64,000 nucleotides of DNA from [Archangium] primigenium. Lineage in GTDB: Bacteria > Myxococcota > Myxococcia > Myxococcales > Myxococcaceae. A program made the position numbers and the translations under genes. The notes under the pieces are model-generated. The model was not told where the DNA came from, did not search any database, and saw only the letters and a list, made by a program, of their open reading frames with translations. Below are positions 46,218 to 61,828 of this stretch, in pieces; positions within the stretch are counted from its first letter, which is position 1; the number at the start of each line of letters is the position of its first letter. Where the stretch lies: the NCBI RefSeq assembly GCF_016904885.1, contig NZ_JADWYI010000001.1, forward strand, positions 7,305,224-7,369,223, given 5' to 3'.

Positions 46218-46778
46218 TCACCGCGCACGAGAAAGCACGCGAGCATCAACTGAGTAGAACTCCCATCCCTCGGCTGGACTTGGCCGTAATTTGGAGGGAA
46301 GCACATGCTCCGCCCTCGACAAATGAGAAGGCCCGTCCAGCAACATTAGAACAGGCCCTGGGCCAGCAGGGTTCAACTCCTGCGAAAGCAGCGCATTAAC
46401 CAAAACAACCAACTCCTCAGAGAAACCATCAAAGTCGCGGCCCGCGTCTCTACTCAAGCGACCCGCGATATCTCGATACTGCACACCAAGCTGAACGAAC
46501 AAGTCGAAGAACCACCTTCGATTTGTTCCCCCCAAATCCAACAGAGGGAGAGTTCGAAGGTCCATTACCCAGCGGGGCCGCAAATCACGCAACAGAGAAA
46601 CAAATGGCGCAGCTGGCATCGCAGCCATATCAATAAAACACAACAACTTAGGACTGGACATCAAAAACAACGGCAACTGCAACGGCTCTCGAAAAGAACG
46701 AGGCGAACTCGCCGATACGTCCAATCTCTCAGGAGAAACAATCAGCTTGAGGTGCGAAACGGCATTGCCCCTAGACAT
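46218..46778 (-). CDS. hypothetical protein encoded in the low-GC islet
   Basis: Overlaps or abuts the deaminase gene stop. No recognisable domain. Start is ambiguous (MSRGNAV or internal MSSPKLL). Confidence 0.4.
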   Translation of the reverse strand: MSRGNAVSHLKLIVSPERLDVSASSPRSFREPLQLPLFLMSSPKLLCFIDMAAMPAAPFVSLLRDLRPRWVMDLRTLPLLDLGGTNRRWFFDLFVQLGVQYRDIAGRLSRDAGRDFDGFSEELVVLVNALLSQELNPAGPGPVLMLLDGPSHLSRAEHVLPSKLRPSPAEGWEFYSVDARVLSRAR

Positions 46779-48417
46779 TCGAAGGCCCCGGTTCAAGCAG
46801 TTTTGCTTCCATTTCGGCGTGACTCAGTTTGCTAATATCCCAGGCGGATCCCCAATCAGGTTCTCCAATGCTCATCGCGCCATCGTCCTTGCTCTTAAAT
46901 TCCCGGTCTTTAAGGAAGGCACGCCAATAGAGCCGCGGCGCAACACCAGTGAAAGGAAGGAATGGGATTTTCTTCCCTTTTTCATGAGCCCGGTGACTAA
47001 TCGAATCACCATGAAGCTTTAGAGCGCGGCTTTTGGGGTAAGGCTCAATGTATTGAACCTCATCTACTCCAGCACTAACAATATGTCGGGCGCAGTAGTG
47101 ACAAGGATAAGTGGTTACAAACAGTCGACATCCCTGAGGAGAAGCACCCTGGCGCGCGGCACTCAGTAGGGCATCCATCTCGGCATGAACTGCACGACTA
47201 AACTCGATCAATTCTCCGACTGGGGAATTATCTCTAAGTTTGGCTTTAAGCGCGTCACGCTCTGCTGCGCTTAGCGGTTTTTCCTCGTGAATAACTTCGA
47301 GGACTTTCTCAATAATGTCGGCTTGCTCGCGAGTATTACTGCAGTACTTCTCGGGACGAAATGCGCAGCGATTATCGTTCGACGGTGCAATTTCGTCGGA
47401 ATCCTGAGCATACACGCCTCCCCCCGCCCTAGGGACTTCATTTGCTCCTGTCGAAACGATATTACCTGTCGCATCAATCAGGGCGGCCCCAACTTGACGA
47501 GACAAGCACGCGCTACGCATTTGGGCTCCATATGCCGCATGCATAGCCGTCTCGCTTGAAGTTGGTCGCTCAATACTCGATTGCGTAATTATACGCACCA
47601 ATCGAACCAGATGTTCATCTACTCGCCAGTTCGGATTATCTTTAAGCTGCCCCCCATCCTCTAGTTGACGCTCCTCACTATTATCAACAAAGAAGTCCGC
47701 TAGATGGAAGGCGTCCGAGACGCGCTGGCCGTGCTTCTTCTTTTTTGGGTCCTTCTCTTTAGCATCACGTTCCATGAACTTTTTGATGTGGACTTGACCC
47801 GCATCAGTAAATTTCGTCTTTTGCAAACGTTCCAGACGAATGTCTTCTTGACACACAACCCCAACAAGCGCGAATGCGTTCCGATACAAGCTTCGCAGCA
47901 GATGTGCTTCCGCCGGATGCCGTATAGCGTCGATGATGTAAGCGCGAGGTTTTCCATCTGGAAGAACAGCTCCAACGCCAGGGTTTTCTATACGTTGCAT
48001 TCGGGCCCTAGCCAGTCGGATTCTTTCGACCATCGAACGAGCGACAGCAGTAGCATCACTGCTGCGCATCTCATCTCCCCAATCCTGCAGATTGATAGCG
48101 TGCTTTAAATCTGTCTTTTTGGGCTCTTCTGTTAGTTTGCCGCTCCGGCGTGCCCAATCAACAATTACTTCTCGTGCCTTTAGCATCTCAACTTCGTAAC
48201 CCTTTCGGCTCGATAGTAGGTTTTGGAGTGCCTCGGCGATAAACGAGGTTCCTGAGCCGACATGGCCGACGACAGCGAAGACAAGTTCGTTGGACGCGTG
48301 CTCTTTGAACAGCTCTTGAGCGCCGGTACCCGGGCGCCTTCTACTTTGGAGGGACACAACGGTTTCGGCAGCGGACATGACGAAATCGTACCAGATTAAG
48401 ATGCTGGTTTCGGGCAC
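46771..48417 (-). CDS. kinase-like N-domain + CMP/dCMP-type zinc deaminase C-domain protein (dCTP-deaminase antiphage defense family candidate)
   Basis: N-terminal P-loop-like motif VFAVVGHVGSGTSFIAEAL. C-terminal zinc-deaminase motifs HAEMDAL...PCHYCARHIV. 548 aa. Low GC. Confidence 0.6.
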   Translation of the reverse strand: MPETSILIWYDFVMSAAETVVSLQSRRRPGTGAQELFKEHASNELVFAVVGHVGSGTSFIAEALQNLLSSRKGYEVEMLKAREVIVDWARRSGKLTEEPKKTDLKHAINLQDWGDEMRSSDATAVARSMVERIRLARARMQRIENPGVGAVLPDGKPRAYIIDAIRHPAEAHLLRSLYRNAFALVGVVCQEDIRLERLQKTKFTDAGQVHIKKFMERDAKEKDPKKKKHGQRVSDAFHLADFFVDNSEERQLEDGGQLKDNPNWRVDEHLVRLVRIITQSSIERPTSSETAMHAAYGAQMRSACLSRQVGAALIDATGNIVSTGANEVPRAGGGVYAQDSDEIAPSNDNRCAFRPEKYCSNTREQADIIEKVLEVIHEEKPLSAAERDALKAKLRDNSPVGELIEFSRAVHAEMDALLSAARQGASPQGCRLFVTTYPCHYCARHIVSAGVDEVQYIEPYPKSRALKLHGDSISHRAHEKGKKIPFLPFTGVAPRLYWRAFLKDREFKSKDDGAMSIGEPDWGSAWDISKLSHAEMEAKLLEPGPSNV

Positions 48418-48766: not shown

Positions 48767-49056
48767 CTACGGCGCCGAGGGCGTGGCGATGCGCGCGGGC
48801 TGGGGAATGCCGGGCATCAGGGGCGTGGGGTTGAGCGCGAGCACGAGCAGGCTGCGCAGCGCGTCCTTCAAGTCCTCGCCCACGCTGACCGAGCCCGCGG
48901 GCGCGTCCTGGAGCTCGGGCGGCACCTCGTGGCCCAGCACCACCACCGGCAGGCGGATGTCCCAGGCGAGGAAGTGCGCGAGCTTCACCGCCGCCTCGGT
49001 GGTGTCGAACAGGAGCGCTCCCACCGCCCCGGAGCTGAAGGGCCGCCACAGGGGCC
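48767..49056. repeat. right 290-bp direct repeat (3' end of the intact response-regulator gene)
   Basis: See the left repeat. Confidence 0.85.
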
Positions 49057-50269
49057 GGGCCGCCTCGGCGGGCGGCAGCACGCAGAAGTCCAGGTGCAGC
49101 AGCTCGTTGAGCTCCATGCGGCCGAGCGTGCCGAAGCCGCTGCGCACCGCGGGCGGCTCGGCGGCCACGGCGGCGAGCTCCGCGAGCTGGGAGAGCACCC
49201 GCCGGGCCACGGCCGGGCCGCTGCCACACACGAAGAGCTTCGCGGTGGCCTCGCGCGACACGCCCCGGCCCCGGAGGATGCGGCCGCGCAGCGCGTGCAG
49301 CTCGGCGGGCGCGAGCAGGGGCGCGCTGGTGCCGGCGTCCGCGTCGCCCTCGGCCATGCGCGCCACGCCCTTCTGCAAGAGCGCGTGCAGCACGCCCACC
49401 ACTTCCAGATCCGTGGCGGGCGCCAGGTCCAACACCTCGTTCACGGCCCGGGGCTGGCGCAACAGCTCCACCACCTGCGCCGTCACCGGGTGCTGGTCGC
49501 CCGCCAGGTCCATGTCCGGCGCGAGCACCAGGCGCGTGTGGCGCGGCGGCAGGCCGGGCAGCAGCCGGTTCACCTCGTCCGCCTGGCGCATGGCCTCCAG
49601 CAGCGCGCTGTCCATGGCCCGCTGGATGCGCGGCTTGCCGGAGGTATTGCCGGGCGCGAAGGTGAAGGTGCCCTCGGTCCACACGAGCAGCCGGAACAGG
49701 GCCTTCTCCCCTTCCGCGCGGCCCACCCGGGCGTTGAAGGGGCGACCCTCCACCACGACGATCTCCCCGCGCTCGTTGCCCCGCTCCAGCGTCAGCTTGC
49801 CGCTGCGCTTGTTCATCCCGAGGATCTGCATCAGGTCCGGGATGCTCAGCTGGCTCAGCGAGCCCTCGATCTCCTGGGCCTCGCTCTTGAGATCCTTGGC
49901 CGCGTCGCTGCGGCGGAAGACGTGCTCGATGCGCGAGAGCACCTCGTCCAGGTTGAAGGGCTTGCGCAGGAAGCCATCGCGCAGGCCGCGCATCTTGTCG
50001 GCCTCGAGCTGGCTGGTGGACACCACCACGGGGATGTCGTCCGTGCGCGGGTTGGTGTGCAGGATGTTGATGAAGGTGCGCGCGTCCAGCATCCGGCACG
50101 CCTCGTCGAAGAGGATGAGGTCGGGGTGGCGCAGCACGGCGACCTCCAGCGCGCGCGAGCCGTCCGGCGCGTAGTGCACCTGGTAGCCGCGGGTGCGCAG
50201 GGCGCGCGACAGCGGACGGACGGACTCGAGGTCGGGGTCGGCGATGAGGATTTTTCGGACCTGGGCCAT
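48767..50269 (-). CDS. response regulator with receiver domain + DUF4388 (PatA-like) domain + C-terminal uncharacterised domain
   Basis: Receiver (KILIADPDLESV...DLILFDE...KPF). DUF4388-like segment (LSQLSIPDLMQILGMNKRSGKLTLERGNERGEIVVVEGRPFNARVG). Confidence 0.7.
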   Translation of the reverse strand: MAQVRKILIADPDLESVRPLSRALRTRGYQVHYAPDGSRALEVAVLRHPDLILFDEACRMLDARTFINILHTNPRTDDIPVVVSTSQLEADKMRGLRDGFLRKPFNLDEVLSRIEHVFRRSDAAKDLKSEAQEIEGSLSQLSIPDLMQILGMNKRSGKLTLERGNERGEIVVVEGRPFNARVGRAEGEKALFRLLVWTEGTFTFAPGNTSGKPRIQRAMDSALLEAMRQADEVNRLLPGLPPRHTRLVLAPDMDLAGDQHPVTAQVVELLRQPRAVNEVLDLAPATDLEVVGVLHALLQKGVARMAEGDADAGTSAPLLAPAELHALRGRILRGRGVSREATAKLFVCGSGPAVARRVLSQLAELAAVAAEPPAVRSGFGTLGRMELNELLHLDFCVLPPAEAARPLWRPFSSGAVGALLFDTTEAAVKLAHFLAWDIRLPVVVLGHEVPPELQDAPAGSVSVGEDLKDALRSLLVLALNPTPLMPGIPQPARIATPSAP

Positions 50270-50283
50270 GGGACGCTCGCGAG

Positions 50284-52134
50284 TCAGTACGGCTGCAGGT
50301 CGTACTCGGCCTGCAGGCGGGTGATGAGCCCATCCACCACGGCGGTGTCGGACGAGTGGAAGCCCCAGGTGGCGCCGAGCCCCCGGCGCTGGATGAGCGC
50401 GTAGGCGGCGTTCTCCGACAGCCAGAGGATGAACTCGTGGCGGCCCATGCGCTCGTCGCCCTCGAGGAACACCGGGGTGAGCGCGCGGTGCGACTCCAGG
50501 TCCACGCGCCGCCCGAGCAGGTAGATGCGCGAGGCCAGGTCGGGCGAGGCCGACTCCAGCCCCTGGGCGATGGGCAGGTCCGAGCGGATCTCCGGGCCGC
50601 CCACGTAGAGCAGGCCGCGCGAGCTCGGGTCGCGCATCAGCTCCCGGGCGATCTCCGTCTGCAGCTCGTCGAAGAGCACGTCGGACACCTTGCCCCGGCG
50701 GCTCGGCTCGGCGTGCTCCTCCACCGGCAGCTTGGGGCTGGAGGCGTTGCCCAGCAGCAGGTCCACCTCGTCCCAGAAGGGCAGCGTGTCGAGCATCAGC
50801 TTGCGCTGCAGGGAGGCGCGCCGCTCGTCCATGCGCCGGCGGCAGCGGTACATCAGCTCGTCGAAGTCCTCGCCGTCCTTGGGGAAGGTGCTCGCCCCGC
50901 CCACGAGCGCCAGCGGCAGCCGCGCCTCCACCTCCTGGGCCTCGGGCTCCTCGCGCACGGCCGCCAGGGCGCGGCGCACGAACATCATCGCGCCGAAGAA
51001 GTCCGTCTCCGGCAGCAGCAGGTAGAACTCCTGCTCGCTCGCCTTGGCGATGACGTCCGAGTCGCGCACGATGCGCGAGAGCGCCTTGATGATGCCGCGC
51101 ACCGCGAGCTTGGCGTCCGCGGGCCCCAGGCGCATGCGCACCAGGGGCAGGTTGTCCACGGAGAAGGTCAAGAGCGAGAACATGCGGCCGTAGCGGCGCG
51201 CCTTGTAGATTTCCTTGGAGGCGTAGTCGGTGAAGTAGCTGAGGTTGTACGCGGCGGTGTCCCGGTCGCGCAGGCCCAGCCGCTGCAGGGCCAGCATCTT
51301 GCGCCCGTTCTTCACGCCCACCGCCGCCGAGTCCCCGAGGATCTTCGCGTAGCGCAGGTGCTCGATGCGGAAGTCCCCGGCGAGCGGATCCGACAGCTGG
51401 GCGAGGCCCATCAGCTCCCCGTTGCTCACGAAGGGGACATAGAGGATGGGCGTCTTGCCCTCGCGCACCACCCAGGGCAGGGCCTCGCGCATGCGGTTGC
51501 CCAGCGGGCCTTCCGGGCTCAGCCGGTCCGCGAGGAAGTGGCGGTCGAGCAGGCCCCGGTAGGCGCGCAGCACCAGGGGGCCCCGATCATCGGAGATCCA
51601 CAGCGCGGCGCTCTGGGCGTCACACACGGAGGCCAGCTCCGCGGCCACGCGCTCCTGCAACCACTCCAGGTCCGGCTGGGAGAGGAACTCCAGGCAGCGC
51701 TGGTGCAGGTCCTGGTAGCGGGCGAACTCCAGGTTCTCGTTCTGCAACTGGGCGCGCTCGTGGCGCAGCTGGGCGCGCTCCAGGCTGCGCTCGGTGGCCA
51801 GCAGCAGGTCCGCCTCGTCCACGGGCTTGGTGAGCACCACGGACACGCCCGCGCTCAGGGCCATGGTGGAGCCCTTCACGTCCGTGCGCGTGCTCACGAG
51901 GATGACTTCCTGCGCGGGGTCGTGCTCGCGCAGCCGCTCGGTGAGCGCGAGTCCGTCCATGCCGGGCATCACCACGTCGGAGATGACCAGATCGAAGGCC
52001 TCGCGGCCCGCCACCTCCAGCGCCTCGGCGGCGCTCGCCGCGGAGACGACGCGGTAGCCCCGCTTGGTGAGCATGTCGGAGGCGACCTGCCGGAAGAAGT
52101 TGTCGTCGTCGACGACGAGGATGGGACCGGCCAC
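50284..52134 (-). CDS. response regulator receiver-GAF-GGDEF-like(degenerate)-C-terminal sensory domain protein
   Basis: Receiver (ILVVDDDNFFRQ...DLVISDVVMPGMDG). GAF-like middle region. GGDEF-like region lacking an obvious GG(D/E)EF motif (FSLLTFSVDN). Confidence 0.65.
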   Translation of the reverse strand: MAGPILVVDDDNFFRQVASDMLTKRGYRVVSAASAAEALEVAGREAFDLVISDVVMPGMDGLALTERLREHDPAQEVILVSTRTDVKGSTMALSAGVSVVLTKPVDEADLLLATERSLERAQLRHERAQLQNENLEFARYQDLHQRCLEFLSQPDLEWLQERVAAELASVCDAQSAALWISDDRGPLVLRAYRGLLDRHFLADRLSPEGPLGNRMREALPWVVREGKTPILYVPFVSNGELMGLAQLSDPLAGDFRIEHLRYAKILGDSAAVGVKNGRKMLALQRLGLRDRDTAAYNLSYFTDYASKEIYKARRYGRMFSLLTFSVDNLPLVRMRLGPADAKLAVRGIIKALSRIVRDSDVIAKASEQEFYLLLPETDFFGAMMFVRRALAAVREEPEAQEVEARLPLALVGGASTFPKDGEDFDELMYRCRRRMDERRASLQRKLMLDTLPFWDEVDLLLGNASSPKLPVEEHAEPSRRGKVSDVLFDELQTEIARELMRDPSSRGLLYVGGPEIRSDLPIAQGLESASPDLASRIYLLGRRVDLESHRALTPVFLEGDERMGRHEFILWLSENAAYALIQRRGLGATWGFHSSDTAVVDGLITRLQAEYDLQPY

Positions 52135-52173: not shown

Positions 52174-53025
<852 letters not shown>

Positions 53026-53040
53026 GGGCGATGACTCACT

Positions 53041-56000
53041 TCAGCCGGGCTCCTCGGATTTCGAGGAGGGGGAGGCGGGCGACGATGTTCCCCCCTTGGG
53101 GCGGCGAAGCAACTCATTCTTCACCGCGTTGAGTTCGGCGTTGGCCCGCGCGTAGATATCCTGGACGGAGTCCGGCGCCCGTGCCAGGGCGGTGGGCGGG
53201 GCCTCCAGGGACAAGAGGCGCTCCTCGGCCCGCTCCCGGGCCGCCTGCGCCTCGGCGAGCTCGGTCTTGAGCTGCTCGGACTCGGCGGAGAGCCGGGCCG
53301 TGTCCGCCTCCAGTCGCGCCAGCCGCTCCTCGGCGGCGACCCGCGCCGCGCGCGCCTCCTCCAGCGCCGTCTCGAGCGAGGTGGCCTTGCCCGCGATGCG
53401 CCGGGCCGTCTCCAGCTTCACGGCCAGCAGGTCCTGGTGCTCGCTCTCCGAGGAGAGCTTGGCCTTGGTCTCGACGAGCTGCGTCTGGAGGTCCTCCACC
53501 AGCAACTCGCGCTCGCGCAGGGTCATGTGGGCCTGCTGCAGGGCCATGGAGGCCTGATGGGCCTGGAAGCGGAAGGCCTCCAGCTGGGTGGCGGCCTCGC
53601 GCGCCTGGGTGAGCTCCTCGCGCAGCCCCTCCAGCTCCATGCGCGACTCCACGGCCTCGCGCTTGCGGGCCTCGCGCTCCAGGGTGGTGGCGGCCTCGCG
53701 CGCCTGGGCGGTGGCGAGCGTGTCCCGCTCCGAGGCGAGCCGGACCTCGAGCGACTCGACGAGCTGCCGGAGCACCCCGCGCGACGCCTCCAGCTCCGCC
53801 CGCTCCGACCGGGCGGCCTCCAGCTCGGCGCGCACCGCGGCCAGCACGGACTCGGCCTCCTCACGCTCGGCGGCGAACAGGCCTTCCGTCTCGGCGCGCT
53901 GGCGCCGCTCGGTGTCCAGCTCCGCCTGGAGCCGGGCCAGCGACTCGCGCTCCTCCGCCTGGGCCGTGCCCAGCGCCGCCTCGGCCCGCGCCCGCGTCTC
54001 GCGCTCCACGTCCCACGCGGCGCTCATGGACGCCAGGGAGGTCTCGAGCTCGGCGCGCTGCTTGCGTTCGGTGCCCAGCTCCGCCTGGAGCTTCGCGCGG
54101 GACACCTCGACCCGGGCCTTGCCCGCGCGCTCCGCGTCGAGCTCGGCGCTCCACTCCGCCTGGGCGCGCGCCTGGGCCTCGTCCTTCTCCTCGAGCGCCA
54201 CCTCGAGCGCGGCGCGCCGCCGCTGTTCGGCCGCGAGTTCCTCCTGGAAGATGGACAGGGAGCGGGTGCCGTCGGCGCGCTGCTCGCGCTCGCCCTCCAG
54301 CTCCACGCGCGCCTGGGTCAGCGCGTCCTCGGCGAACACGCGCTGCTCGCGCTCGCCCTCCAGCTCCTCGCGGGCCGCCGCGAGTTGGGACCGCTCGGCG
54401 GCGAGGGCCGCGTCCCGCCCGGCCAACGACGCCTCGGCCTCGGAGCGTCGCAGCCGCTCGGCCTCCAGCGCCTCGTCCTTGCCGGTGAGCGAGGCATCCG
54501 TCTCGGCGAGCCGCAGCCGCTCGGTGTCCCGCTCCGACCGGACGCGGGACAGGGACTGCTCGGCCCGCTCGCGCTGCTCGCGCTCGGCCTCCAGCTCGGA
54601 GCGGGTGCCCGTGAGCGACTCCTCCGCGAACGCGCGCCGCTCGCGCTCGGCCTCGAGCTCCCCCTCGGTGTTCGCCAGGGACACCTCGACGTCCGCGCGC
54701 TGGCGCTGCTCCGCCTCCAGTTCCTGCTGGGTGAGCCCCCACGAGGCCTCGGCGCGGGCCCGGTGCGCGCGCTCGGTGGCCAGCGAGGCCTCCCACGAGG
54801 TCGTGCTCTCGGTGCCGCGCCGCCGCTCGGCCTCCAGCGCCTCACGGGCCTGGGCGAGAGCCTCCTCCGAGCCGCTCCGGGCCCCCTGCTCCGCCTCCAG
54901 CGCGATCCGAAGCTCCGCCAGGGCCTCGTCCACCTGGGCGCGCTGGCGCCGCTCGGCCTCCAGCCCCCGCTGGGCCTCCGCGAGGGCCGCCTCCACCTGG
55001 GCACGCTGCTGCCGGCCCGTCTTCACGACGCCCCGCGTCTCCTCCAGGGCCTCGTCGACCTGGGCACGCTGCTGCCGCTCGGCGTCCAACGTCCCCTGGA
55101 TCTCCAGCAGGGCCGCCTCGACCTGGGCGCGCTGCCGCTGCTCGGCTTCCACCGTGGCCTGGAGCGCGAGCAGGCCCGTATCCCCTTGGGCACGCTGTTG
55201 ACGCTCGGCCTTCAATGCCTCCTGAAGCGCGCGCAGCTCCGCGTCCCGCTGGGCGCGCTGTTGACGCTCTGCCTCCAGCGCCGCCTGGAGTTCGCGCGAG
55301 CCCGCGTCCCCCTGGGTCCGCTGCCGCCGCTCGGCCTCCAGGGCCTCCTGGAGCTCGCGCGCGCCCGCCTCGAGGTGGGCGCGCTGCTGCCGCTCGGCCT
55401 CCAGGGCCTTCTGGAGCTTCGTGCCCTCCTCGAGCGCCAGGAGCCGCCGCTGGTGTTCGGCCTTGGCCTCGGCGCGCACGCGCGCGAGCTGCTCCTGGGC
55501 CTCGGCCATGTGCTGGCGCTCGGTGGTGAGGCCTGCCTGGAGCTGGGTGAACGACGCATCCAGGGCCGCGCGGGCCTCGACCTCCAGGGAGAGCTCCACG
55601 TGGGCCCGGTCCCGCTCCACCTCGGCCTGGAGCCGGGCGTCCCGCTCGGCGGAGATGCCGCCCTGGGTCGCCTGGAGTTCGCCGTCGAGTCGGGCGATGG
55701 ACTCCACGTCCGAGGCGCGCACCCGCTCCAGCTCCGCGAGCGAGGCCTCGACCTCGGCCAGGCGCCGCCGCAGCACGCCGCGCTCGTCCGCCCAGTCCTG
55801 CCGCTGCTCCTTCAAGGCGGCGACGGAGTGCGTGGCCTCCTCGCGCGCGGCCTCCTCCATCCGGAGCTGATGCTCGAGCGCGGCGGCGGCCTGCTCCAGG
55901 GCCTCGCGCGCGGAGCGCTCGCGGGACGCCTCGTCCCGGGCCTCCTGCGTGCGGGCCCGCTCCTCGGTGAGGGCCCGCGCCAGCCGCTGCTCGGCGTGCT

Positions 56001-57717
56001 GGCGCTCCTCCTCGATGGTGTCCTCCAGCTCGGCCGCGGCCCGGACCCGCTCCTCTTCCAGCGAGGCCGAGCGCGTCCGCGTCTCGTGCAGCTCCTGCTC
56101 GAGCCGCGCCGCCAGCTCGCGCGCCTGGGCCTGGAGGCGGGTGCTCTCCTGGACCTCGGCCGTCAGCCGCTCGCGCTCGGCGCGCGCCGCGGTGAGCTCC
56201 GTGACCTGCCCGCGCAGCTCGGCCTCGCGCGTGGTGAGGTGCATCTCCGCGTCCCGCCGGGCGGCCTCGGCCGTGGACAGCCGCCGGGCCAGGGCCTCGG
56301 TCTCGCGCGTGAGCCGGGACACGTCCGCGTCCTGCAGGCGCAGCGACTTCTCCGACGCCTCGCGTCCCTGCTCGACGCGGGCCACCTCGGCCTGGAGCGA
56401 CTCCACCGCGGCGAGCGCCGTCGAGTGCTGCTCGGCCAGCCTCACCTCGCGCTCGCGGGCGGCCTCCGCCTCGCGGCGCAGGGCCTCGGCCTGCTCGCGC
56501 GCGCGATCCGCCGCGAGCCGGTCCCTTTCCCGCTCCACGCGCAGACCGGCCTGCTCGTCGCGCAGGCCGCGCTGCTCGGCGTAGGCCTGGGTGAGCCGCT
56601 CCCGGGACTCCTCCAGCGAGGTGTGCAGCTCCTCGCGGCGCGCGCGCTCCAGGCGCACGGCCTCCTGGGCGGCCAGGGCCTGGACCTCGGACTCCTTGCG
56701 GGCGCGCTCGGCGGTCTCCACCTCCAGGCGCTGCTGGGCGAGGCGCCGGTCCGCGTCACCCAGTCGCTCCTGGGCCACCTGCAGCTCCAGGCCGGTGCGA
56801 CGCAGGCGCGAGGCCAGCTCATCCCGCTCGCGCAGGGAGTCGGGCGAGCCCCGCGCCAGCTCGAGCTGGGCGGACAGCCGCGCCACGTCCTCGCGCGAGG
56901 ACTCCAGCGCGGGTTTGATCGACACGAGCTCGGTCTCGCGCTCGGTGAGCTCGGCGCGCACGCGGGTGAGGGACTCCTTGAGCCGTCCGGCGCGCTCCTC
57001 CCAGCCCTTGCCCCGCTGGGCCACCTCGTCCAGCTTGCCGCGCGTGAAGGCCAGGGGCTCGGGGGGCAGTTGCACCCAGGTGGGGTCCACGACACGGGCG
57101 GGCTCCTGGCCGGCCACCACGAGGAAATAGGCCGCCTCGCCGCCGCGGATGAGCGAGCCGTCCACCTGCAGCCCGTCCCCCTTCTCGAAGGCGAGCTGGT
57201 AGCCCAGGACGGGGGACTGGGTGGCGACCTCCACGTGGGAGAAGTGCGGCGAGAGCGCGTCGAGCAGCTGGCCGTACGTGGGCGGCGCGCCCTCGTCCAC
57301 CTCCATCAACTGCCAGAGGGCCAGACCCGCCACGTTGCGCAGGCCGCCGATCAGGTGCCCCTGCCGGCCCACCAGGCGCGTCAGCTCGGCGAGCAGCATG
57401 GGGGCGCGCACATAGGGCGCCAGGTCCGCCACGAGCACGAGGTCGAAGCTGCCCGGCTCCAGGTCGTCGTAGACGTTGGCGCGAAAGCGCAGCGCGGGGC
57501 CGCCATGGGCCTTGTGCGCGGCCTCCACGGCCTGGAGGTCGGCATCACACGCCACGACGGAGCGGGCGCCGCGCTCCAGAAGGAAGCGCGCGCTCTCCCC
57601 ACCGGTGGTGGCGATCGCGTCCACTTCCAGGACGCGGCGGCGGGCGAAGAGGCTCTCCGCGAAGATGTACCGGGGCAACAGCTCACTGGTCCCCAGGCGG
57701 CGGAATGTAGGATGCAT
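53041..57717 (-). CDS. giant (about 1558 aa) coiled-coil protein with N-terminal Rossmann/methyltransferase-like domain
   Basis: N-terminal 230 aa has an MTase-like fold (RRVLEVDAIATTGGESARFLLERGARSVVACDADLQ...FDLVLVADL). Then about 1300 aa of Ala/Glu/Arg/Gln coiled coil, including about 20 tandem 21-aa LEAERQQRAQ-type repeats. Start set at MHPTFRR to leave a 100-bp divergent promoter region. Confidence 0.6.
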   Translation of the reverse strand: MHPTFRRLGTSELLPRYIFAESLFARRRVLEVDAIATTGGESARFLLERGARSVVACDADLQAVEAAHKAHGGPALRFRANVYDDLEPGSFDLVLVADLAPYVRAPMLLAELTRLVGRQGHLIGGLRNVAGLALWQLMEVDEGAPPTYGQLLDALSPHFSHVEVATQSPVLGYQLAFEKGDGLQVDGSLIRGGEAAYFLVVAGQEPARVVDPTWVQLPPEPLAFTRGKLDEVAQRGKGWEERAGRLKESLTRVRAELTERETELVSIKPALESSREDVARLSAQLELARGSPDSLRERDELASRLRRTGLELQVAQERLGDADRRLAQQRLEVETAERARKESEVQALAAQEAVRLERARREELHTSLEESRERLTQAYAEQRGLRDEQAGLRVERERDRLAADRAREQAEALRREAEAAREREVRLAEQHSTALAAVESLQAEVARVEQGREASEKSLRLQDADVSRLTRETEALARRLSTAEAARRDAEMHLTTREAELRGQVTELTAARAERERLTAEVQESTRLQAQARELAARLEQELHETRTRSASLEEERVRAAAELEDTIEEERQHAEQRLARALTEERARTQEARDEASRERSAREALEQAAAALEHQLRMEEAAREEATHSVAALKEQRQDWADERGVLRRRLAEVEASLAELERVRASDVESIARLDGELQATQGGISAERDARLQAEVERDRAHVELSLEVEARAALDASFTQLQAGLTTERQHMAEAQEQLARVRAEAKAEHQRRLLALEEGTKLQKALEAERQQRAHLEAGARELQEALEAERRQRTQGDAGSRELQAALEAERQQRAQRDAELRALQEALKAERQQRAQGDTGLLALQATVEAEQRQRAQVEAALLEIQGTLDAERQQRAQVDEALEETRGVVKTGRQQRAQVEAALAEAQRGLEAERRQRAQVDEALAELRIALEAEQGARSGSEEALAQAREALEAERRRGTESTTSWEASLATERAHRARAEASWGLTQQELEAEQRQRADVEVSLANTEGELEAERERRAFAEESLTGTRSELEAEREQRERAEQSLSRVRSERDTERLRLAETDASLTGKDEALEAERLRRSEAEASLAGRDAALAAERSQLAAAREELEGEREQRVFAEDALTQARVELEGEREQRADGTRSLSIFQEELAAEQRRRAALEVALEEKDEAQARAQAEWSAELDAERAGKARVEVSRAKLQAELGTERKQRAELETSLASMSAAWDVERETRARAEAALGTAQAEERESLARLQAELDTERRQRAETEGLFAAEREEAESVLAAVRAELEAARSERAELEASRGVLRQLVESLEVRLASERDTLATAQAREAATTLEREARKREAVESRMELEGLREELTQAREAATQLEAFRFQAHQASMALQQAHMTLRERELLVEDLQTQLVETKAKLSSESEHQDLLAVKLETARRIAGKATSLETALEEARAARVAAEERLARLEADTARLSAESEQLKTELAEAQAARERAEERLLSLEAPPTALARAPDSVQDIYARANAELNAVKNELLRRPKGGTSSPASPSSKSEEPG
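54250..55550 (-). repeat. 63-bp tandem coding repeats (21-aa LEAERQQRAQ units) inside the giant coiled-coil gene
   Basis: Repeated GAGGCCGAGCGGCAGCAGCGCGCCCAGGT-like units on the coding strand. Coordinates are approximate. Confidence 0.6.
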
Positions 57718-57819
57718 GCGGTAGAGCGGCCGAGTATAGCCCCGGGGAGGGATGTCCCTAAGGAATGCACCCGGGCTTGTGCCTGGCCGCATCGCCCGGA
57801 CGAGGGGAGAGCAAGCGAT

Positions 57820-58602
57820 ATGAACTCGACGATGAATCCGCGCCCGGGACTGGGCCATCGGGCCGCGACGGCCTTCACCCGGCTGCTCGTCACCCTGCTC
57901 GTGCTGGGCCTGGGGGGAGCGGTGGCCTTCCTGCTGTCCCAGCTCAATGCCCGCACCTTCTCCTTCGCCCAGGAGAACGGCCAGCTCGTGGTGATGAAGG
58001 GCCGGATGCTGCCCATGGGGGCCCTGCCCTACCAGCCCGGGGACGCGCGCCAGGCGGACGCCTATGCCCCCCTGACGGTGGAGGGCCAGGACGTGTCCGG
58101 GCTGGTCGAGCGCCGGTTCTCCGAGCGGGACGAGCTGGACCGGGCGCTCTTCTCGCTCCTGGAGTCGCTCGCCCGCTACAAGGTGCTCTCGGACAAGCCG
58201 GCCGAGCTGGAGCGGGGGCTGTACTACCTGCGGCGCGCCGAGCTGCTCTCGGGCCTCACGGACGAGCAGCGCCGCTCGCTGGCGTCGATGAAGGCGGACG
58301 TGGCCTTCTTCCAGGCCAAGCAGAAGCTGGAGGAGGCGCGCCGGGGCGTGAGCGAGGCCATGGTCCAGCTCAAGCTCGCGGCGGAGAGCCGCAACCGCAA
58401 CACGCCCCTGGCCAACCAGTTCCTCACCACGGTGGGGCCGGCCGCCCAGGCGCTGGAGCAGGCCCTGCGCGCCGCCGAGGCCAGCCTGGGCAACACCCCG
58501 GCCGAGCAGCCGCCCCGGGAGACGCCCCCCGCCGCGACGCCCACCGCGGCCCCCGAGACCCAGCCCACGCCCGACGCCTCCACCCCCCCCAACGCCCCAT
58601 GA
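57820..58602 (+). CDS. membrane-anchored hypothetical protein with Pro/Thr-rich C-terminus
   Basis: GGGGAGAG RBS 8 nt upstream. N-terminal TM helix (LLVTLLVLGLGGAVAFLL). Divergent from the giant coiled-coil gene. Confidence 0.5.
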   Translation: MNSTMNPRPGLGHRAATAFTRLLVTLLVLGLGGAVAFLLSQLNARTFSFAQENGQLVVMKGRMLPMGALPYQPGDARQADAYAPLTVEGQDVSGLVERRFSERDELDRALFSLLESLARYKVLSDKPAELERGLYYLRRAELLSGLTDEQRRSLASMKADVAFFQAKQKLEEARRGVSEAMVQLKLAAESRNRNTPLANQFLTTVGPAAQALEQALRAAEASLGNTPAEQPPRETPPAATPTAAPETQPTPDASTPPNAP

Positions 58603-59066
58603 CGACGACCCCGGTGCCCCCCGAGATGAAGCGGCTCGCGCCCTTCGAGAAGACCCTGCGCGAGGCGGCCCGTGCCTACCCCGAGACGACCGAGGACTTC
58701 CCCTGGGGCCACCCCACGGTGAAGGTCAAGGGCAAGGCGTTCGTGTTCTTCTCGCTCAGCGCGGAGGGCCTCTCCCTGTCCGTGAAGCTGCCCCACTCCC
58801 ACGAGGCGGCCTTGATGCTGCCGTTCGCCCAACCCACCGGCTATGGCCTGGGCAAGAGCGGCTGGGTGTCGGCGCGCTTTGGCGCCAAGGACACGCCCCC
58901 CCTGGAGCTGCTGCGCCAGTGGCTCGACGAGAGCTACCGCGCGGTGGCGCCCAAGAAGCTCGTGGCGGGCCTGGACGGCGGAGGCACGCCCTCGGCCCGA
59001 AAGCCCCCGGCCGCCAAGAAGCCGCTGGCCGCCAAGAAGGCCGCTCGCCGCTCCCCCCGGTCCTGA
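58599..59066 (+). CDS. MmcQ/YjbR-family predicted DNA-binding protein
   Basis: EDFPWGHPTVKVKGKAFVFF is the family signature. ATGA overlap with the upstream gene. Lys/Ala/Pro-rich basic tail. Confidence 0.6.
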   Translation: MTTTPVPPEMKRLAPFEKTLREAARAYPETTEDFPWGHPTVKVKGKAFVFFSLSAEGLSLSVKLPHSHEAALMLPFAQPTGYGLGKSGWVSARFGAKDTPPLELLRQWLDESYRAVAPKKLVAGLDGGGTPSARKPPAAKKPLAAKKAARRSPRS

Positions 59067-59091
59067 TCTTCCGAGCAAGGAGTCTCTCCGC

Positions 59092-60048
59092 ATGGCTTCC
59101 CCTTCGCAGGTCCGCCCCGTGGTCCTCCTGGGCGCGCGTGACGATGCCCACGTCTCCCGCCTGGCCCAGCGGCTGGGGCAGGAGGGGGTGGTGGCGCTCG
59201 TCGTGGACACCCTCGCCTTCCCCGAGGACACGCGCCTGGCGCTCACGGACGCGCTCGACGGCATCCACGTGAACGGGGGCGCGCTGCCGACCCCGGGCGC
59301 CGTCTACCTGCGCGGCTACCATGGCCACCCCCTGGCCTTCGGCGTGGACGCGCGCGAGGCCATGGACGACGACTGGCGCACGACGCTGGTGGCCTTCCGC
59401 GAGAAGTCCACCCTGCTGCGGGGGCTGGTGGGCCGCTGGGAGGCGATGGGCATTCCCGTCTACAACCCCGAGTCCACGAGCTGGCGCATGCCCAAGCCGG
59501 TCCAGCTCGCGCTGCTGGCCCAGGCGGGGCTGCCGGTGCCCGAGACCCTCTGGACCAACGACTCCGTGGCGGTGCGCCGCTTCGCCGAGGGCCGGCGCGT
59601 GGCCTACAAGCCCGTGGACGGGGGCGCGGCCACGCTGGAGCTCGGCCCGGGAGACCTGAGCGACGAGCGGCTCGCCGCCCTGGAGGCCGCGCCGGTGACG
59701 TTCCAGGAGCTGCTCACGGGCGAGGACCTCCGCGTCTACGTGCTCGACGGGGAGATCATCGCCAGCGTGCGCATCCACTCGCGCGCGATCGACTTCCGCG
59801 GCCACGAGGAGCGGCTCGAGTCCATCACGCTGCCCGACGAGGTGGCCCGGCAGTGCCTGCTGGCCACGCGGGTGCTGGGCCTGCGCTGGACGGGGATGGA
59901 CCTCAAGCGCGATGCCCAGGGCACCTGGCGCTTCCTGGAGCTCAACGAGTCGCCCATGTTCCTCGGCTTCGATGCCCGGGCCGGCACGGACATCCTGGGG
60001 CACCTGGCCCGGGGACTCGCCCGCGCGGCTCGCCTGCCTGCTCCTTGA
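59092..60048 (+). CDS. RimK-like ATP-grasp ligase (candidate graspetide macrocyclase)
   Basis: AAGGAG RBS 9 nt upstream. ATP-grasp motifs (KPVQLALLAQAGLPVPET, VAYKPVDGGAA, ELLTGEDLRVYVLDGEIIAS, MDLKRDAQGTWRFLELNESPMF). 318 aa. Confidence 0.65.
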   Translation: MASPSQVRPVVLLGARDDAHVSRLAQRLGQEGVVALVVDTLAFPEDTRLALTDALDGIHVNGGALPTPGAVYLRGYHGHPLAFGVDAREAMDDDWRTTLVAFREKSTLLRGLVGRWEAMGIPVYNPESTSWRMPKPVQLALLAQAGLPVPETLWTNDSVAVRRFAEGRRVAYKPVDGGAATLELGPGDLSDERLAALEAAPVTFQELLTGEDLRVYVLDGEIIASVRIHSRAIDFRGHEERLESITLPDEVARQCLLATRVLGLRWTGMDLKRDAQGTWRFLELNESPMFLGFDARAGTDILGHLARGLARAARLPAP

Positions 60049-60477: not shown

Positions 60478-61011
60478 CTATTTGCCCTTCATCAGGCCGA
60501 TGAACGGCAGGTTGCGGTAGCGCTCGGCGTAGTCCAGGCCATAGCCCACCACGAACACGTCATCGATGACGAAGCCCTTGTAGTCGATGGGGATCTTCGT
60601 CCGGGCGCGCGCGGGCTTCTCCAGCAGGGAGCACACCTTGAGCGACGCCGGGTGGCGGGCGCGCAGGTTCTCCAGCAGGAAGCTCATGGTGAGCCCCGTG
60701 TCGATGATGTCCTCGATGACGAGCAGGTGCTTGCCCGCCATGGGCTTGCTCACGTCGGTGGTGATGCGCACCTCGCCGGTCGTCTCGGTGCCTCCGTGGT
60801 AGGAGGACACCCCGAGGAACTCGACCGTCAGGGGCAGGTCCACGTAGCGCGCCAGGTCCATGGCGAAGAAGGCCGAGCCCTTGAGCACGCAGATGAGCGT
60901 GAGGTCCTTGCCCTGGTAGTCACGGGTGATCTGCTCGCCCAGCTCGCGCACGCGCGCCTGGAGCTTCTGCTCGTCGATGTGGATGCCGACGTCCTGCTCG
61001 TAGAAAGCCAC
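60478..61011 (-). CDS. hpt: hypoxanthine phosphoribosyltransferase
   Basis: PRTase motif LLVIEDIIDTGLTM. Overall HPRT sequence. Confidence 0.8.
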   Translation of the reverse strand: MAFYEQDVGIHIDEQKLQARVRELGEQITRDYQGKDLTLICVLKGSAFFAMDLARYVDLPLTVEFLGVSSYHGGTETTGEVRITTDVSKPMAGKHLLVIEDIIDTGLTMSFLLENLRARHPASLKVCSLLEKPARARTKIPIDYKGFVIDDVFVVGYGLDYAERYRNLPFIGLMKGK

Positions 61012-61050: not shown

Positions 61051-61653
61051 TCAGTTGCCGAACAGCTCGAGCGTCTGAGGCGGCGTGGCCTCGGTGGGCT
61101 CGGCCCGGTGGCACTTGCGGCAGCGCGCCTCGTAGGCGCCGGCCGCGCCCACCACCACGCGCTCGCCGCGATCCACCAGCCGCTGCGAGCGATTGGCGGG
61201 ATTCCCACACACGACGCAGATGGCCAGTTGCTTCGTCACGTACTCGGCGATCGCCAGCAGCTGCGGCATCGGCTCGAAGGGACGGCCCTGATAGTCCTGA
61301 TCCAGCCCGGCCAGGATGACGCGCAGGCCCCTGTGCGCCAGTGCCTCACACACCGCCACCACCTCGCTGCCGAAGAACTGCACCTCGTCGATGCCCACCA
61401 CCTGCGTGTGGGGAGAGAGATGACGGAAAATTTCTTCAGCCCGTTCGATGGGAATGGAGGTCAATTTCAACTGGGAATGGCTGACCACCTGGGTCTCGTC
61501 GTAGCGGTTGTCGATCCTCGGCTTGAAGACCTGGACCGCTTGCTTGCCATAGACGGCGCGCTTGACGCGACGGATGAGTTCTTCCGTTTTTCCGGAGAAC
61601 ATCGACCCGCAGATGACCTCTATCCACCCGATGTCTTTGGGGAATTGGTGCAC
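61051..61653 (-). CDS. tdk: thymidine kinase
   Basis: P-loop GSMFSGKTEELIRR and C-terminal zinc ribbon CVVCG...CRKCH. The start is uncertain. The long upstream frame is unlikely to be translated. Confidence 0.7.
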   Translation of the reverse strand: MHQFPKDIGWIEVICGSMFSGKTEELIRRVKRAVYGKQAVQVFKPRIDNRYDETQVVSHSQLKLTSIPIERAEEIFRHLSPHTQVVGIDEVQFFGSEVVAVCEALAHRGLRVILAGLDQDYQGRPFEPMPQLLAIAEYVTKQLAICVVCGNPANRSQRLVDRGERVVVGAAGAYEARCRKCHRAEPTEATPPQTLELFGN

Positions 61654-61828
61654 GCGAGGAACTCGATCGGGGTGGGGGTTGGAGCGCGGGTCAGCTCTGA
61701 CACGCCCCTCCTGGCACGTCAACTTCCCGCCCCCCGCGACCCGAGGCCCCACACGCGCCGTCCGCCCCCGGCCCCGTGGCAAGCATCTTGAATGACGTTG
61801 CTTCGGGTTCAAACCGGGGAGGTCTTGG

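What the first reader, a model, noticed from the sequence alone, without database searches (positions are those of the whole stretch)
53041..57717. 1558-aa coiled-coil protein: methyltransferase-like N-domain plus about 20 tandem 21-aa LEAERQQRAQ repeats, heading an operon with dapF and two response regulators
The domain combination (Rossmann/MTase-like head, about 1300-aa continuous coiled coil with a highly regular 21-residue repeat array encoded by 63-bp DNA repeats) is unusual. It is followed on the same strand, with short gaps, by dapF, an RR-GAF-GGDEF-like protein and an RR-DUF4388 protein. That suggests a cytoskeletal or polar-scaffold role coupled to signalling, as seen for myxobacterial motility and polarity scaffolds.
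Basis: partly seen in the sequence, partly recalled or inferred. Interest (0 to 1): 0.55.

Follow-up and report, generated by a model that had tools for sequence, protein, structure and literature searches.

The report
Giant myxobacterial rod protein, methyltransferase-like head
This is a real, conserved but unstudied myxobacterial gene for a very long (about 180 nm) rod-shaped protein with a probably inactive methyltransferase-like head and a repeat-built middle whose length changes between relatives; it most likely works as a structural tether or scaffold, but nothing has been tested by experiment.

Summary
The gene lies on the minus strand (53041-57717, 1558 aa) in [Archangium] primigenium. 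By position it is the orthologue of M. xanthus MXAN_5055.

- **Head:** aa 1-225 has a class I SAM-methyltransferase fold. Its glycine loop is remodelled, with three extra residues and GxGxG lost, whereas distant relatives keep GCGDG. It is probably not a normal enzyme.
- **Rod:** a 1214-residue proline-free heptad coiled coil, about 180 nm long.
- **Repeats:** about 22 units of 21 aa (three heptads), each with a conserved Glu(d)/Arg(a) core pair. Close relatives differ by whole units (21 or 42 aa). Orthologues range from 1120 to 2293 aa.
- **Conservation:** the head and neck are strongly conserved and fixed in length. The middle of the rod is not.
- **Synteny:** dapF, a receiver-GAF protein with a degenerate GGDEF but an intact I-site (MXAN_5053 equivalent), and a receiver-PATAN protein follow in most Myxococcaceae loci with enough downstream sequence. 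More distant clades lack this trio. A divergent gene for a single-pass membrane protein is the steadier neighbour.

No paper on MXAN_5055 was found. Deleting MXAN_5053 gave no motility or development defect. The scaffold or tether function is inferred, not shown.

The parts
53041..57717 (-). Gene for the 1558-aa head-plus-rod protein (positional orthologue of M. xanthus MXAN_5055)
   Evidence: ORF. The start is supported by homologue N-termini. 168 genomic relatives were confirmed and 80 fetched.
57043..57717 (-). Head, aa 1-225. Class I SAM-methyltransferase fold with a remodelled glycine loop (VLEV-DAIATTGG) and a conserved acidic residue, D58, at the end of beta2.
   Evidence: AF2 model, Foldseek/PDB, Pfam below cutoff, alignment with relatives that keep the canonical loop. 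The head is 81-90 % identical across genera.
57046..57090 (-). Head-rod junction VDPTWVQLPPEPLAF (aa 210-224), nearly invariant
   Evidence: W214, V215, Q216, L217, P218 and P221 are invariant in alignment A2.
56398..57042 (-). Conserved proximal rod or 'neck', aa 226-440. No length variation: the ERARREE anchor sits at residue 357/358 in 36 of 36 orthologues.
   Evidence: Conservation profile 0.58-0.78; anchor positions.
53458..56397 (-). Variable rod, aa 441-1420. Heptad coiled coil, fast-evolving in sequence and length.
   Evidence: Conservation 0.03-0.6. The distance between the two anchors is 727-1500 aa among orthologues. Heptad power.
53848..55542 (-). Array of about 22 tandem 21-aa units (63 bp; three heptads), consensus LqeaLEAERqQRAqvEaaLaE. 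Core positions: L1(d) L5(a) E8(d) R12(a) V/A15(d) L19(a).
   Evidence: The HMM hits span aa 650-1278, which is 53884-55770.
53338..53457 (-). Distal conserved island, aa 1421-1460 (..LLAVKLETARRIAGKATSLE..)
   Evidence: Conservation 0.56-0.57 within a poorly conserved rod. The motif LE[TS]ARRxAGKA is found in 40 orthologues plus the window protein.
53101..53214 (-). C-terminal motifs: LSLEAPP (aa 1502-1508; compare PALDLPP in Myxococcus) and the helix DSVQDIYARANAELNAVKNELLRR (aa 1516-1539), which is specific to the Archangium clade and to short family members
   Evidence: C-termini of orthologues. The short homologues P0024, P0026 and P0030 carry the same helix.
53044..53100 (-). Pro/Ser-rich tail ending in ..KSEEPG. 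Orthologues end in KPDEQG, KPDERE or KVGERE.
57718..57819 (.). 102-bp divergent intergenic region between the rod gene and the membrane-protein gene. A TATACT box lies about 16 nt upstream of the ATG.
   Evidence: Sequence read directly. The sigma-70 consensus scan found no match.
57820..58602 (+). Divergently transcribed gene for a 260-aa bitopic membrane protein: TM helix aa 11-43, beta-hairpin, helical domain, Pro/Thr-rich tail. It is the most constant neighbour of the rod gene. NCBI names it 'IF-2 protein'.
   Evidence: Present upstream in almost all of the 80 loci, distant clades included. AF2 pLDDT 87. No Pfam or NCBIfam family. No specific fold match. Names.
52174..53025 (-). dapF (diaminopimelate epimerase), 15 bp after the rod gene
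   Evidence: PF01678 E = 4e-53 and TIGR00652 E = 2e-70, above cutoff. MXAN_5054 = DapF (PMC11980068).
50284..52134 (-). Receiver-GAF-GGDEF protein with a degenerate active site (SEQEF) and an intact RxxD I-site (RDSD). Candidate c-di-GMP receptor; equivalent to MXAN_5053.
   Evidence: Pfam. RDSD in 54/54, S[DE]QEF in essentially all of 54, and the receiver Asp in 53/54 orthologues. Exact match to WP_204492776.1 of [Archangium] primigenium.
48767..50269 (-). Receiver-PATAN (DUF4388) protein with a 260-aa C-terminal region that matches no family; MXAN_5052 by position
   Evidence: Pfam PF14332 E = 1.5e-21 and PF00072. The receiver Asp is present in 49/49. Exact match to WP_204492773.1.

Best explanation
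The gene encodes a member of an uncharacterised protein family that is conserved in Myxococcaceae/Archangiaceae and has more distant relatives in metagenomes. The protein is a long rod with two differentiated ends. SHOWN: a methyltransferase-fold head; a neck of invariant length; a heptad-periodic, proline-free rod of about 1214 aa; a middle part made of 21-residue units that are gained and lost as whole units between close relatives; a conserved distal island and C-terminal motifs; a conserved divergent partner gene for a bitopic membrane protein; and, in Myxococcaceae proper, tight same-strand linkage to dapF, a receiver protein with I-site-only GGDEF, and a receiver-PATAN protein. INFERRED: the chains pair into a coiled coil about 180 nm long (165-305 nm across orthologues). 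The recurrent Glu(d)/Arg(a) pair in each unit helps keep the repetitive strands in register. The head, whose SAM-binding loop is remodelled, acts as a binding or dimerisation module rather than a standard enzyme. The repeat array is a spacer that sets the distance between the conserved head/neck end and the distal/C-terminal end. The protein would then serve as a structural tether or scaffold at or near the cell envelope. It may be anchored through the neighbouring membrane protein, and in Myxococcaceae it may be co-expressed with, and regulated by, c-di-GMP and phosphorylation through the two receiver proteins.
For: Fold of the head: (top 50 hits all class I MTases), model quality. Degenerate loop. 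Distant relatives P0165, P0191 and P0178 keep VLEVGCGDG. The Myxococcaceae clade has a 3-aa insertion, and the second Gly is replaced by Thr. Pfam score is below cutoff. Rod: heptad power with 0-1 of 1000 shuffles reaching it, and 1214 Pro-free residues. Repeats and the E8/R12 core pair: (E8 85-100 % (95-100 % in three of the four clades), R12 82-100 % in 193 units from four clades). Whole-unit indels of 21 and 42 aa between orthologues 90-95 % identical. Length range 1120-2293 aa. Differential constraint: head 81-90 % against rod 41-63 % identity; head plus neck conserved to aa 440 and an island at 1421-1460; first anchor fixed at residue 357/358 while the anchor-to-anchor distance is 727-1500 aa. 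Partner genes: membrane-protein gene kept in distant clades; I-site invariant. Family size, with the head always N-terminal.
Against: There are no experimental data on any member. No paper mentions MXAN_5055 or MXAN_5052. Oligomeric state, strand orientation and localisation are unknown. Loss of catalysis is inferred from motif I only, and E31 and D58 (the ribose-binding acid) remain nearly invariant, so SAM binding is not excluded. By the positive-inside rule, the conserved membrane-protein neighbour has most of its mass on the periplasmic side and only about 10 cytoplasmic residues (aa 1-10) before the TM helix, so direct anchoring is speculative. Strong hydrophobic residues (LIVMFWY, Ala not counted) fill only 0.3-0.6 of the core positions. 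The MXAN_5053 deletion shows no phenotype. The repeat HMM was trained on this protein, so the E8/R12 frequencies are partly circular.
Confidence: 0.5

Rival explanations
1. The protein is an active SAM-dependent methyltransferase held on a long coiled-coil stalk. The rod positions or dimerises a working enzyme that modifies a protein or small molecule at a defined place.
For: The head has a class I MTase fold. E31 and D58, the acid at the end of beta2, are nearly invariant. The head is the most conserved part of the protein. Distant family members keep a canonical GCGDG loop. Many homologues carry precomputed Pfam MTase hits.
Against: GxGxG is lost and the loop is lengthened by 3 residues throughout the Myxococcaceae clade. 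Pfam scores 20.8 bits against a cutoff of 27. Across the wider family the beta2 acid is itself replaced by K, T or S in several members that keep GxGxG. This mosaic decay is typical of pseudo-enzymes. No substrate-related gene is linked.
Confidence: 0.2
2. The protein is a self-assembling, intermediate-filament-like cytoskeletal protein of the CCRP type (crescentin, FilP, Scy, Bdellovibrio Ccrp). It would form filaments under the membrane and influence cell stiffness, shape or peptidoglycan synthesis. The dapF linkage would reflect a cell-wall connection.
For: The rod is a long heptad coiled coil. Some homologues give weak Pfam Rod_CreS (crescentin rod) hits. dapF lies immediately downstream in most Myxococcaceae. 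The conserved neighbour is an envelope protein.
Against: The window protein has no Rod_CreS hit even at E <= 10. The weak hits elsewhere are of the kind that coiled-coil composition produces. Short family members of 350-410 aa, with only about 110-180 aa of coil, exist, which fits a filament former poorly. dapF is absent from the neighbourhood in distant clades.
Confidence: 0.2
3. The gene order is a lineage-specific accident. The rod protein has a function unrelated to the two receiver proteins and to dapF, and dapF-RR-RR is a separate unit that happens to lie downstream.
For: dapF-RR-RR stays together while its link to the rod gene is broken by 2.5-4.6 kb inserts (L011, L059, L060, L062) or an opposite-strand gene (L081). 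It is absent downstream in L061-L080 and L084. The rod gene sits in a conserved TK-UPRT-HPRT neighbourhood.
Against: The gaps of 15, 39 and 14 bp contain no terminator-like site. The same order is kept in most loci across at least eight genera.
Confidence: 0.3

Closest known systems
AglZ and FrzS of Myxococcus xanthus (receiver domain plus long coiled coil; motility and polarity scaffolds)
   Same: The architecture is an N-terminal globular domain followed by a very long coiled coil. The organism group is the same. Receiver-domain signalling is associated with both (here on separate neighbouring genes).
   Different: The head here has a methyltransferase fold, not a (pseudo-)receiver. No sequence homology was detected. 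The rod is longer and built from repeats. No motility phenotype is known, and the adjacent MXAN_5053 deletion is silent.
Bacterial coiled-coil-rich / IF-like proteins (crescentin, FilP, Scy, Bdellovibrio Ccrp)
   Same: A long heptad-based rod is the dominant feature. A few homologues give weak Rod_CreS Pfam hits.
   Different: Those proteins have no enzyme-fold head. The window protein gives no Rod_CreS hit. Filament formation was not tested. The repeat unit is a regular 21-mer (three heptads) carrying an E(d)/R(a) pair.
Class I SAM-dependent methyltransferases of the Methyltransf_11/25 type (e.g. ToxA 5je6, TehB-like 3cgg, Trm112-activated Hvo_0019 6f5z)
   Same: The Rossmann-like fold matches: Foldseek E down to 2e-9, TM about 0.5, 12-21 % identity. 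The acidic residue after beta2 is kept.
   Different: Motif I GxGxG is lost and the loop is 3 residues longer. The protein scores below Pfam's threshold. It is fused to about 1300 aa of coiled coil. It has a family-specific N-terminal helix (LPRYxFxE) and C-terminal subdomain.
Degenerate-GGDEF c-di-GMP receptors (e.g. SgmT of M. xanthus, PopA of Caulobacter), for the neighbouring receiver protein
   Same: The A-site is lost and the RxxD I-site is kept five residues upstream. SgmT binds c-di-GMP in this way (PMC3509222, abstract seen).
   Different: The architecture is REC-GAF-GGDEF*. Binding was not tested here. The deletion mutant of the M. xanthus orthologue has no reported phenotype.
PatA-type PATAN response regulators (PatA, PixG and PilG-like proteins of cyanobacteria), for the last gene
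   Same: Both combine a PATAN (DUF4388) domain with a receiver domain. PATAN genes are often linked to MglA/MglB and to type IV pilus polarity systems (PMC4316618). PATAN proteins co-occur with SgmX (PMC11580455).
   Different: The domain order is reversed: the receiver is N-terminal and PATAN follows. There is an extra 260-aa C-terminal region with no family match.

Membership tests
Class I SAM-dependent methyltransferase | Rossmann-like seven-strand alpha/beta fold | tested here: met
   The AF2 model has core pLDDT >90. The top 50 Foldseek/PDB hits are all class I MTases, with 808 hits at E <= 1e-3.
Class I SAM-dependent methyltransferase | Motif I glycine-rich loop (E/D-x-G-x-G-x-G) after beta1 | tested here: not met
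   The sequence is VLEV-D-AIAT-T-G-G. There is a 3-residue insertion and the second Gly is replaced by Thr, whereas the distant relatives P0165, P0191 and P0178 have VLEVGCGDG.
Class I SAM-dependent methyltransferase | Acidic residue at the end of beta2 that binds the SAM ribose | tested here: met
   D58 in VVACD is invariant in A1 and A2 and nearly invariant in A3. It is replaced in some distant relatives.
Class I SAM-dependent methyltransferase | Curated sequence-model threshold (Pfam gathering score) | tested here: not met
   Methyltransf_25 scores 20.8 bits against a cutoff of 27. Methyltransf_12 scores 12.6 against 30.
Class I SAM-dependent methyltransferase | SAM binding and methyl transfer | not testable with these tools
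   This needs biochemistry.
Bacterial coiled-coil-rich / IF-like cytoskeletal proteins (crescentin, FilP, Scy) | Extended heptad coiled-coil rod | tested here: met
   The 3.5-residue hydrophobic periodicity is reached by 0-1 of 1000 shuffles in all five rod segments. There are 1214 Pro-free residues.
Bacterial coiled-coil-rich / IF-like cytoskeletal proteins (crescentin, FilP, Scy) | Sequence relation to a known rod family (Pfam Rod_CreS) | tested here: not met
   There is no hit even at E <= 10. Some homologues carry only weak hits.
Bacterial coiled-coil-rich / IF-like cytoskeletal proteins (crescentin, FilP, Scy) | Nucleotide-independent self-assembly into filaments | not testable with these tools
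   This needs purified protein or in vivo imaging.
AglZ/FrzS-type myxobacterial scaffolds | N-terminal (pseudo-)receiver domain fused to the coiled coil | tested here: not met
   The head has an MTase fold and gives no Response_reg hit. Receiver domains are found on the two downstream genes instead.
AglZ/FrzS-type myxobacterial scaffolds | Polar or focal-adhesion localisation and a motility phenotype | not testable with these tools
   No data are available for MXAN_5055. The neighbour MXAN_5053 shows no motility phenotype.
SMC / chromosome segregation ATPase (the name JGI gives to relatives) | ABC-type ATPase head and hinge; equivalog score | tested here: not met
   TIGR02168 matches the coil only (aa 226-504), at 48 bits against a cutoff of 567. 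The head has an MTase fold.
Diguanylate cyclase (for 50284-52134) | GG(D/E)EF active-site motif | tested here: not met
   The motif is SEQEF here and S[DE]QEF in 54 orthologues.
Degenerate-GGDEF c-di-GMP receptor (for 50284-52134) | RxxD I-site five residues upstream of the GGDEF position | tested here: met
   RDSD is invariant in 54/54. Binding itself was not tested.

The most novel reading that the evidence does not exclude
The family is a bacterial 'molecular ruler or tether', comparable in logic to eukaryotic golgins. A pseudo-methyltransferase head has been co-opted as a partner-binding end. A conserved distal end binds something else. The 21-residue units, kept in register by a buried Glu/Arg pair, are added or removed to tune a spacing of about 165-305 nm between an envelope anchor and c-di-GMP/PATAN signalling proteins in gliding, fruiting myxobacteria.
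Probability: 0.15. Interest if true: 0.75.

Novelty: new variant of a known kind. Interest (0 to 1): 0.45.

Why it matters
Myxobacteria are a main model for bacterial cell polarity, gliding and multicellular development. Several of their key organisers are long coiled-coil proteins. This gene is present in every Myxococcaceae/Archangiaceae genome sampled here. It is among the largest genes in those loci and has a strongly constrained head and neck. It lies next to a candidate c-di-GMP receptor and a PATAN regulator. Even so, no paper in the searched library mentions it.

The family also offers a clean natural experiment. The rod length varies about two-fold, by whole-unit changes, while both ends are kept. 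This makes the question 'does rod length matter?' directly testable. It also documents an enzyme fold that seems to be turning into a structural module, with canonical and degenerate loops both present in one family. If the protein turns out to be only a generic coiled-coil protein with no phenotype, the finding is of minor interest.

Tried and rejected
- **SMC identity:** rejected. Only the coil matches, far below cutoff.
- **Crescentin-rod membership:** rejected. No Pfam hit at E <= 10.
- **PDB sequence searches of the head:** these gave only marginal MTase hits (E = 0.14; 0.003 with a profile that also pulled in tropomyosins because coil columns were included). Fold search was needed.
- **Heptad phase between the two conserved anchors:** I tested whether it is preserved. 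It is not; the distance mod 7 takes all values, so there is no global register constraint.
- **AFDB50 fold search**, intended to give the taxonomic range: the library was not available.
- **The search for related loci with the wide alignment:** it failed because no block was conserved enough. It was repeated with closer sequences.
- **Exact-sequence look-ups:** those for the rod protein and for P0065 found nothing.
- **Literature:** searches for MXAN_5055/5052/5051, for coiled coil plus methyltransferase in Myxococcus, and for Bdellovibrio Ccrp found nothing on this gene. PATAN proteins MXAN_3211 and MXAN_4965 were considered as orthologues of the last gene and dropped once dapF = MXAN_5054 fixed the locus.
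- **Single-alpha-helix (ER/K) alternative for the repeats:** judged less likely. The hydrophobic 3.5 periodicity is strongest exactly there, and (i, i+4) E-R pair density is modest. It is not excluded.
Full report
**Where and what.** The ORF lies on the minus strand. The longest reading is 53041..57858 (1605 aa). Homologues all begin at MH(P/H)TFRRLG, so the start at 57717 and a length of 1558 aa are right. The two downstream response-regulator proteins are identical to WP_204492776.1 and WP_204492773.1 of [Archangium] primigenium, which identifies the source organism.

On the same strand follow three genes:
- dapF (52174-53025; TIGR00652 E = 2e-70);
- a REC-GAF-GGDEF protein (50284-52134);
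- a REC-DUF4388/PATAN protein (48767-50269).

The gaps between genes are 15, 39 and 14 bp, and no terminator-like site lies between them. Upstream, 102 bp away and divergent, is a 260-aa membrane-protein gene (57820-58602).

**Is the observation more than chance?** Yes.
- Identity at lag 21 over aa 726-1290 is 0.397, against 0.128 +/- 0.014 in shuffles (z = 19.5).
- An HMM built from 16 units finds 22 units between aa 650 and 1278. The HMM was trained on this protein.
- TRF finds 63-bp arrays at 54391-54524 and 54888-55463.
- The units are 60-83 % identical at the nucleotide level, against 38 +/- 7 % background. The array is therefore old rather than freshly amplified.
- Hydrophobic residues recur every 3.5 positions in all five rod segments (0-1 of 1000 shuffles reach the observed power).
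- No proline occurs between residues 293 and 1506. If this stretch is a continuous coiled coil, 1214 residues make about 180 nm. That length is an inference.

**The head.** By sequence it is only marginally a methyltransferase: Methyltransf_25 scores 20.8 bits against a cutoff of 27, and the best PDB sequence hit has E = 0.14. An AlphaFold model built on 51 homologues has a confident core (pLDDT >90 for residues 20-130). All 50 best Foldseek matches in the PDB are class I SAM-methyltransferases, including ToxA, TehB-like and Trm112-dependent enzymes. The best E is 2e-9, TM is about 0.5, and 808 hits have E <= 1e-3. The fold is therefore settled.

The cofactor site is not settled.
- The loop after beta1 reads VLEV-DAIATTGG; the family consensus is VLEVGAVASTxG.
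- More distant family members have the canonical VLEVGCGDG.
- The Myxococcaceae clade carries a 3-residue insertion, and the second glycine has become Thr.
- The acidic residue after beta2 (D58) and E31 remain nearly invariant.
- In the wider family, several members that keep GxGxG have lost that acid.

This mosaic decay suggests a fold that is drifting away from catalysis. I rate a non-catalytic or atypical head as more likely than a normal enzyme, but this is inference from motifs only.

**The repeat unit.** Stacked in register, the unit is LqeaLEAERqQRAqvEaaLaE. With the heptad register found by scanning, the core positions are L1(d), L5(a), E8(d), R12(a), V/A15(d) and L19(a). Among 193 units collected from four clades, E8 is 85-100 % (95-100 % in three of the four clades) and R12 is 82-100 %. 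These figures are partly circular, because the HMM came from this protein. The M. xanthus array (..AFAAEQQARAETEAVLAQSRE..) independently shows the same E8/R12 spacing. A charged Glu/Arg pair at core positions once every three heptads could fix the register of otherwise near-identical repeats. That is a hypothesis.

**Family and constraint.** A scan of one genome per species confirmed 168 relatives, and 80 loci were fetched. All of those with an organism name are Myxococcaceae/Archangiaceae or unclassified Myxococcota.
- Full-length orthologues range from 1120 to 2293 aa.
- Head identity to the window protein is 81-90 % across genera. Rod identity is only 41-63 % over aligned positions.
- A conservation profile shows head plus neck conserved to about aa 440, then a poorly conserved middle, and an island at aa 1421-1460.
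- The motif ERARREE sits at residue 357 or 358 in all 36 orthologues that carry both anchors.
- The distance from ERARREE to the distal motif LETARRxAGKA varies from 727 to 1500 aa and takes all values mod 7.
- Orthologues 90-95 % identical differ by indels of 21 or 42 aa inside the array, plus 7 and 14 aa elsewhere, in Archangium and Myxococcus. Two genomes labelled Corallococcus exercitus differ by 177 aa.

So the ends are fixed and the spacer is plastic, changing by whole units. An exhaustive HMMER search of 1.84 billion representatives found 487 clusters at E <= 1e-3. In these the head is almost always at the N-terminus, and the proteins are 270-2066 aa long. The tails sampled are all coiled-coil-like. 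Complete short forms of 350-410 aa exist.

**Neighbourhood.** The order rod-dapF-RR-RR is kept in most loci that have enough downstream sequence. These include Archangium, Cystobacter, Vitiosangium, Hyalangium, Myxococcus, Pyxidicoccus, Corallococcus and Citreicoccus.
- In L011, L059, L060 and L062, 2.5-4.6 kb separate the rod gene from dapF.
- In L081 an opposite-strand penicillin-amidase gene intervenes.
- In L061-L080 and L084 the trio is absent from the downstream 5-10 kb.

The divergent membrane-protein gene, by contrast, is present nearly everywhere. The thymidine kinase/UPRT/HPRT genes further upstream recur next to a relative with only 37 % head identity. In the window, TK is at 61051-61812 and HPRT at 60478-61011. 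The steadiest partner of the rod gene is therefore the membrane protein. Linkage to dapF and the two receiver proteins is a feature of the Myxococcaceae.

The membrane protein has a confident model: pLDDT 87, TM helix 11-43, a beta-hairpin and a helical domain. It has no Pfam or NCBIfam family and no specific fold match. By the positive-inside rule its bulk would be periplasmic. This is my own reading of the sequence.

**Link to M. xanthus and the literature.** PMC11980068 gives MXAN_5054 as DapF. MXAN_5053 is a 617-aa response regulator in the Sogaard-Andersen laboratory's set of 24 GGDEF/EAL/HD-GYP genes. The M. xanthus orthologue of the window's receiver-GGDEF protein is 616 aa and adjoins dapF. 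By position, then, the rod gene is MXAN_5055 and the PATAN gene is MXAN_5052. This assignment is positional and was not checked against the DK1622 sequence.

Only three of the 24 mutants had motility defects and four had developmental defects, and MXAN_5053 is not named among them. In the window protein and 53 orthologues the GGDEF motif is S[DE]QEF, while the RxxD I-site (RDSD) is invariant. The receiver Asp is present in 53 of 54. It is therefore a candidate c-di-GMP receptor like SgmT (PMC3509222). PATAN proteins are linked to MglA/MglB and co-occur with the pilus regulator SgmX. No paper in the library mentions MXAN_5055 or MXAN_5052.

**Interpretation.** The anatomy is two conserved ends, a neck of invariant length, and a rod whose length drifts by unit gain and loss. 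This fits a structural tether or scaffold best (confidence about 0.5).

The rivals are:
- a working methyltransferase on a stalk (0.2);
- an IF-like filament former tied to the cell wall (0.2);
- the possibility that the operon linkage says nothing about function (0.3). This last one is not exclusive of the others.

Its functional reading is reasonable but unproven, and the silent MXAN_5053 mutant and the lineage-restricted synteny temper it.

**Verdict.** This is a real, conserved, uncharacterised family. It is a new variant of the known class of bacterial coiled-coil scaffold proteins, distinguished by a methyltransferase-fold head with a decaying cofactor loop and by a regular 21-residue spacer array. 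Interest is moderate (0.45).

Noticed in passing
window 46771-48417 (-), with 46218-46796 (-): A 548-aa protein with a P-loop/kinase domain and a dCMP-deaminase domain matches the PADLOC 'dCTPase' (dCTP deaminase anti-phage defence) model at E = 1.2e-152 (Pfam). It sits in a low-GC stretch (0.58 against about 0.72) directly after the PATAN gene, so it is probably a small acquired defence island. The adjacent 192-aa ORF has no hits.
   Followed up: partly
window 57820-58602 (+): NCBI names the divergent membrane protein 'IF-2 protein' across many myxobacteria. It has no IF-2 domain. The name probably comes from its Pro/Thr/Ala-rich tail. It has a confident novel-looking model (pLDDT 87) with no specific structural match.
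   Followed up: yes
loci L022, L024, L027, L031, L043, L049-L051: Many Illumina draft assemblies of Myxococcus, Pyxidicoccus and Corallococcus end 770-910 bp upstream of the rod gene. That position is at the 3' Pro/Thr-rich end of the membrane-protein gene, which suggests a recurrent assembly break at low-complexity, GC-rich sequence.
   Followed up: no
proteins P0142 and P0125: Distant family members end in ..LKSKGLGKFFSR or ..LKAKGLGKLFR. From memory, this amphipathic basic tail resembles the MinD membrane-targeting sequence. It hints that in some lineages the rod's C-terminus binds the membrane directly. The window protein lacks it.
   Followed up: no
window 60478-61011 (-), 61051-61812 (-); L084 6603-8566; the P0142 locus: Hypoxanthine phosphoribosyltransferase and thymidine kinase genes lie close to the rod gene in the window. 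TK-UPRT-HPRT lies in the same relative position next to relatives with only 37-67 % head identity. This supports positional orthology over a wide range.
   Followed up: partly
window 58603-59066 (+) and 58843-60048 (+): The C-terminal part of the 57765-59066 ORF reads like a small YjbR/MmcQ-type protein (my reading of the translation, not tested). The overlapping 401-aa ORF has a RimK-like ATP-grasp hit (E = 2e-8). The true gene boundaries here were not resolved.
   Followed up: no
L023 (Archangium gephyra PVMSAZ), L031, L081, L084: In several long-read or draft assemblies the rod gene is interrupted (488 aa, 711 aa, 405+628 aa, 326+1243 aa), although the C-terminal part follows in the same locus. 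These are probably frameshift errors in GC-rich repeats rather than real pseudogenes. This also explains why the protein database returned only hits shorter than 470 aa.
   Followed up: partly
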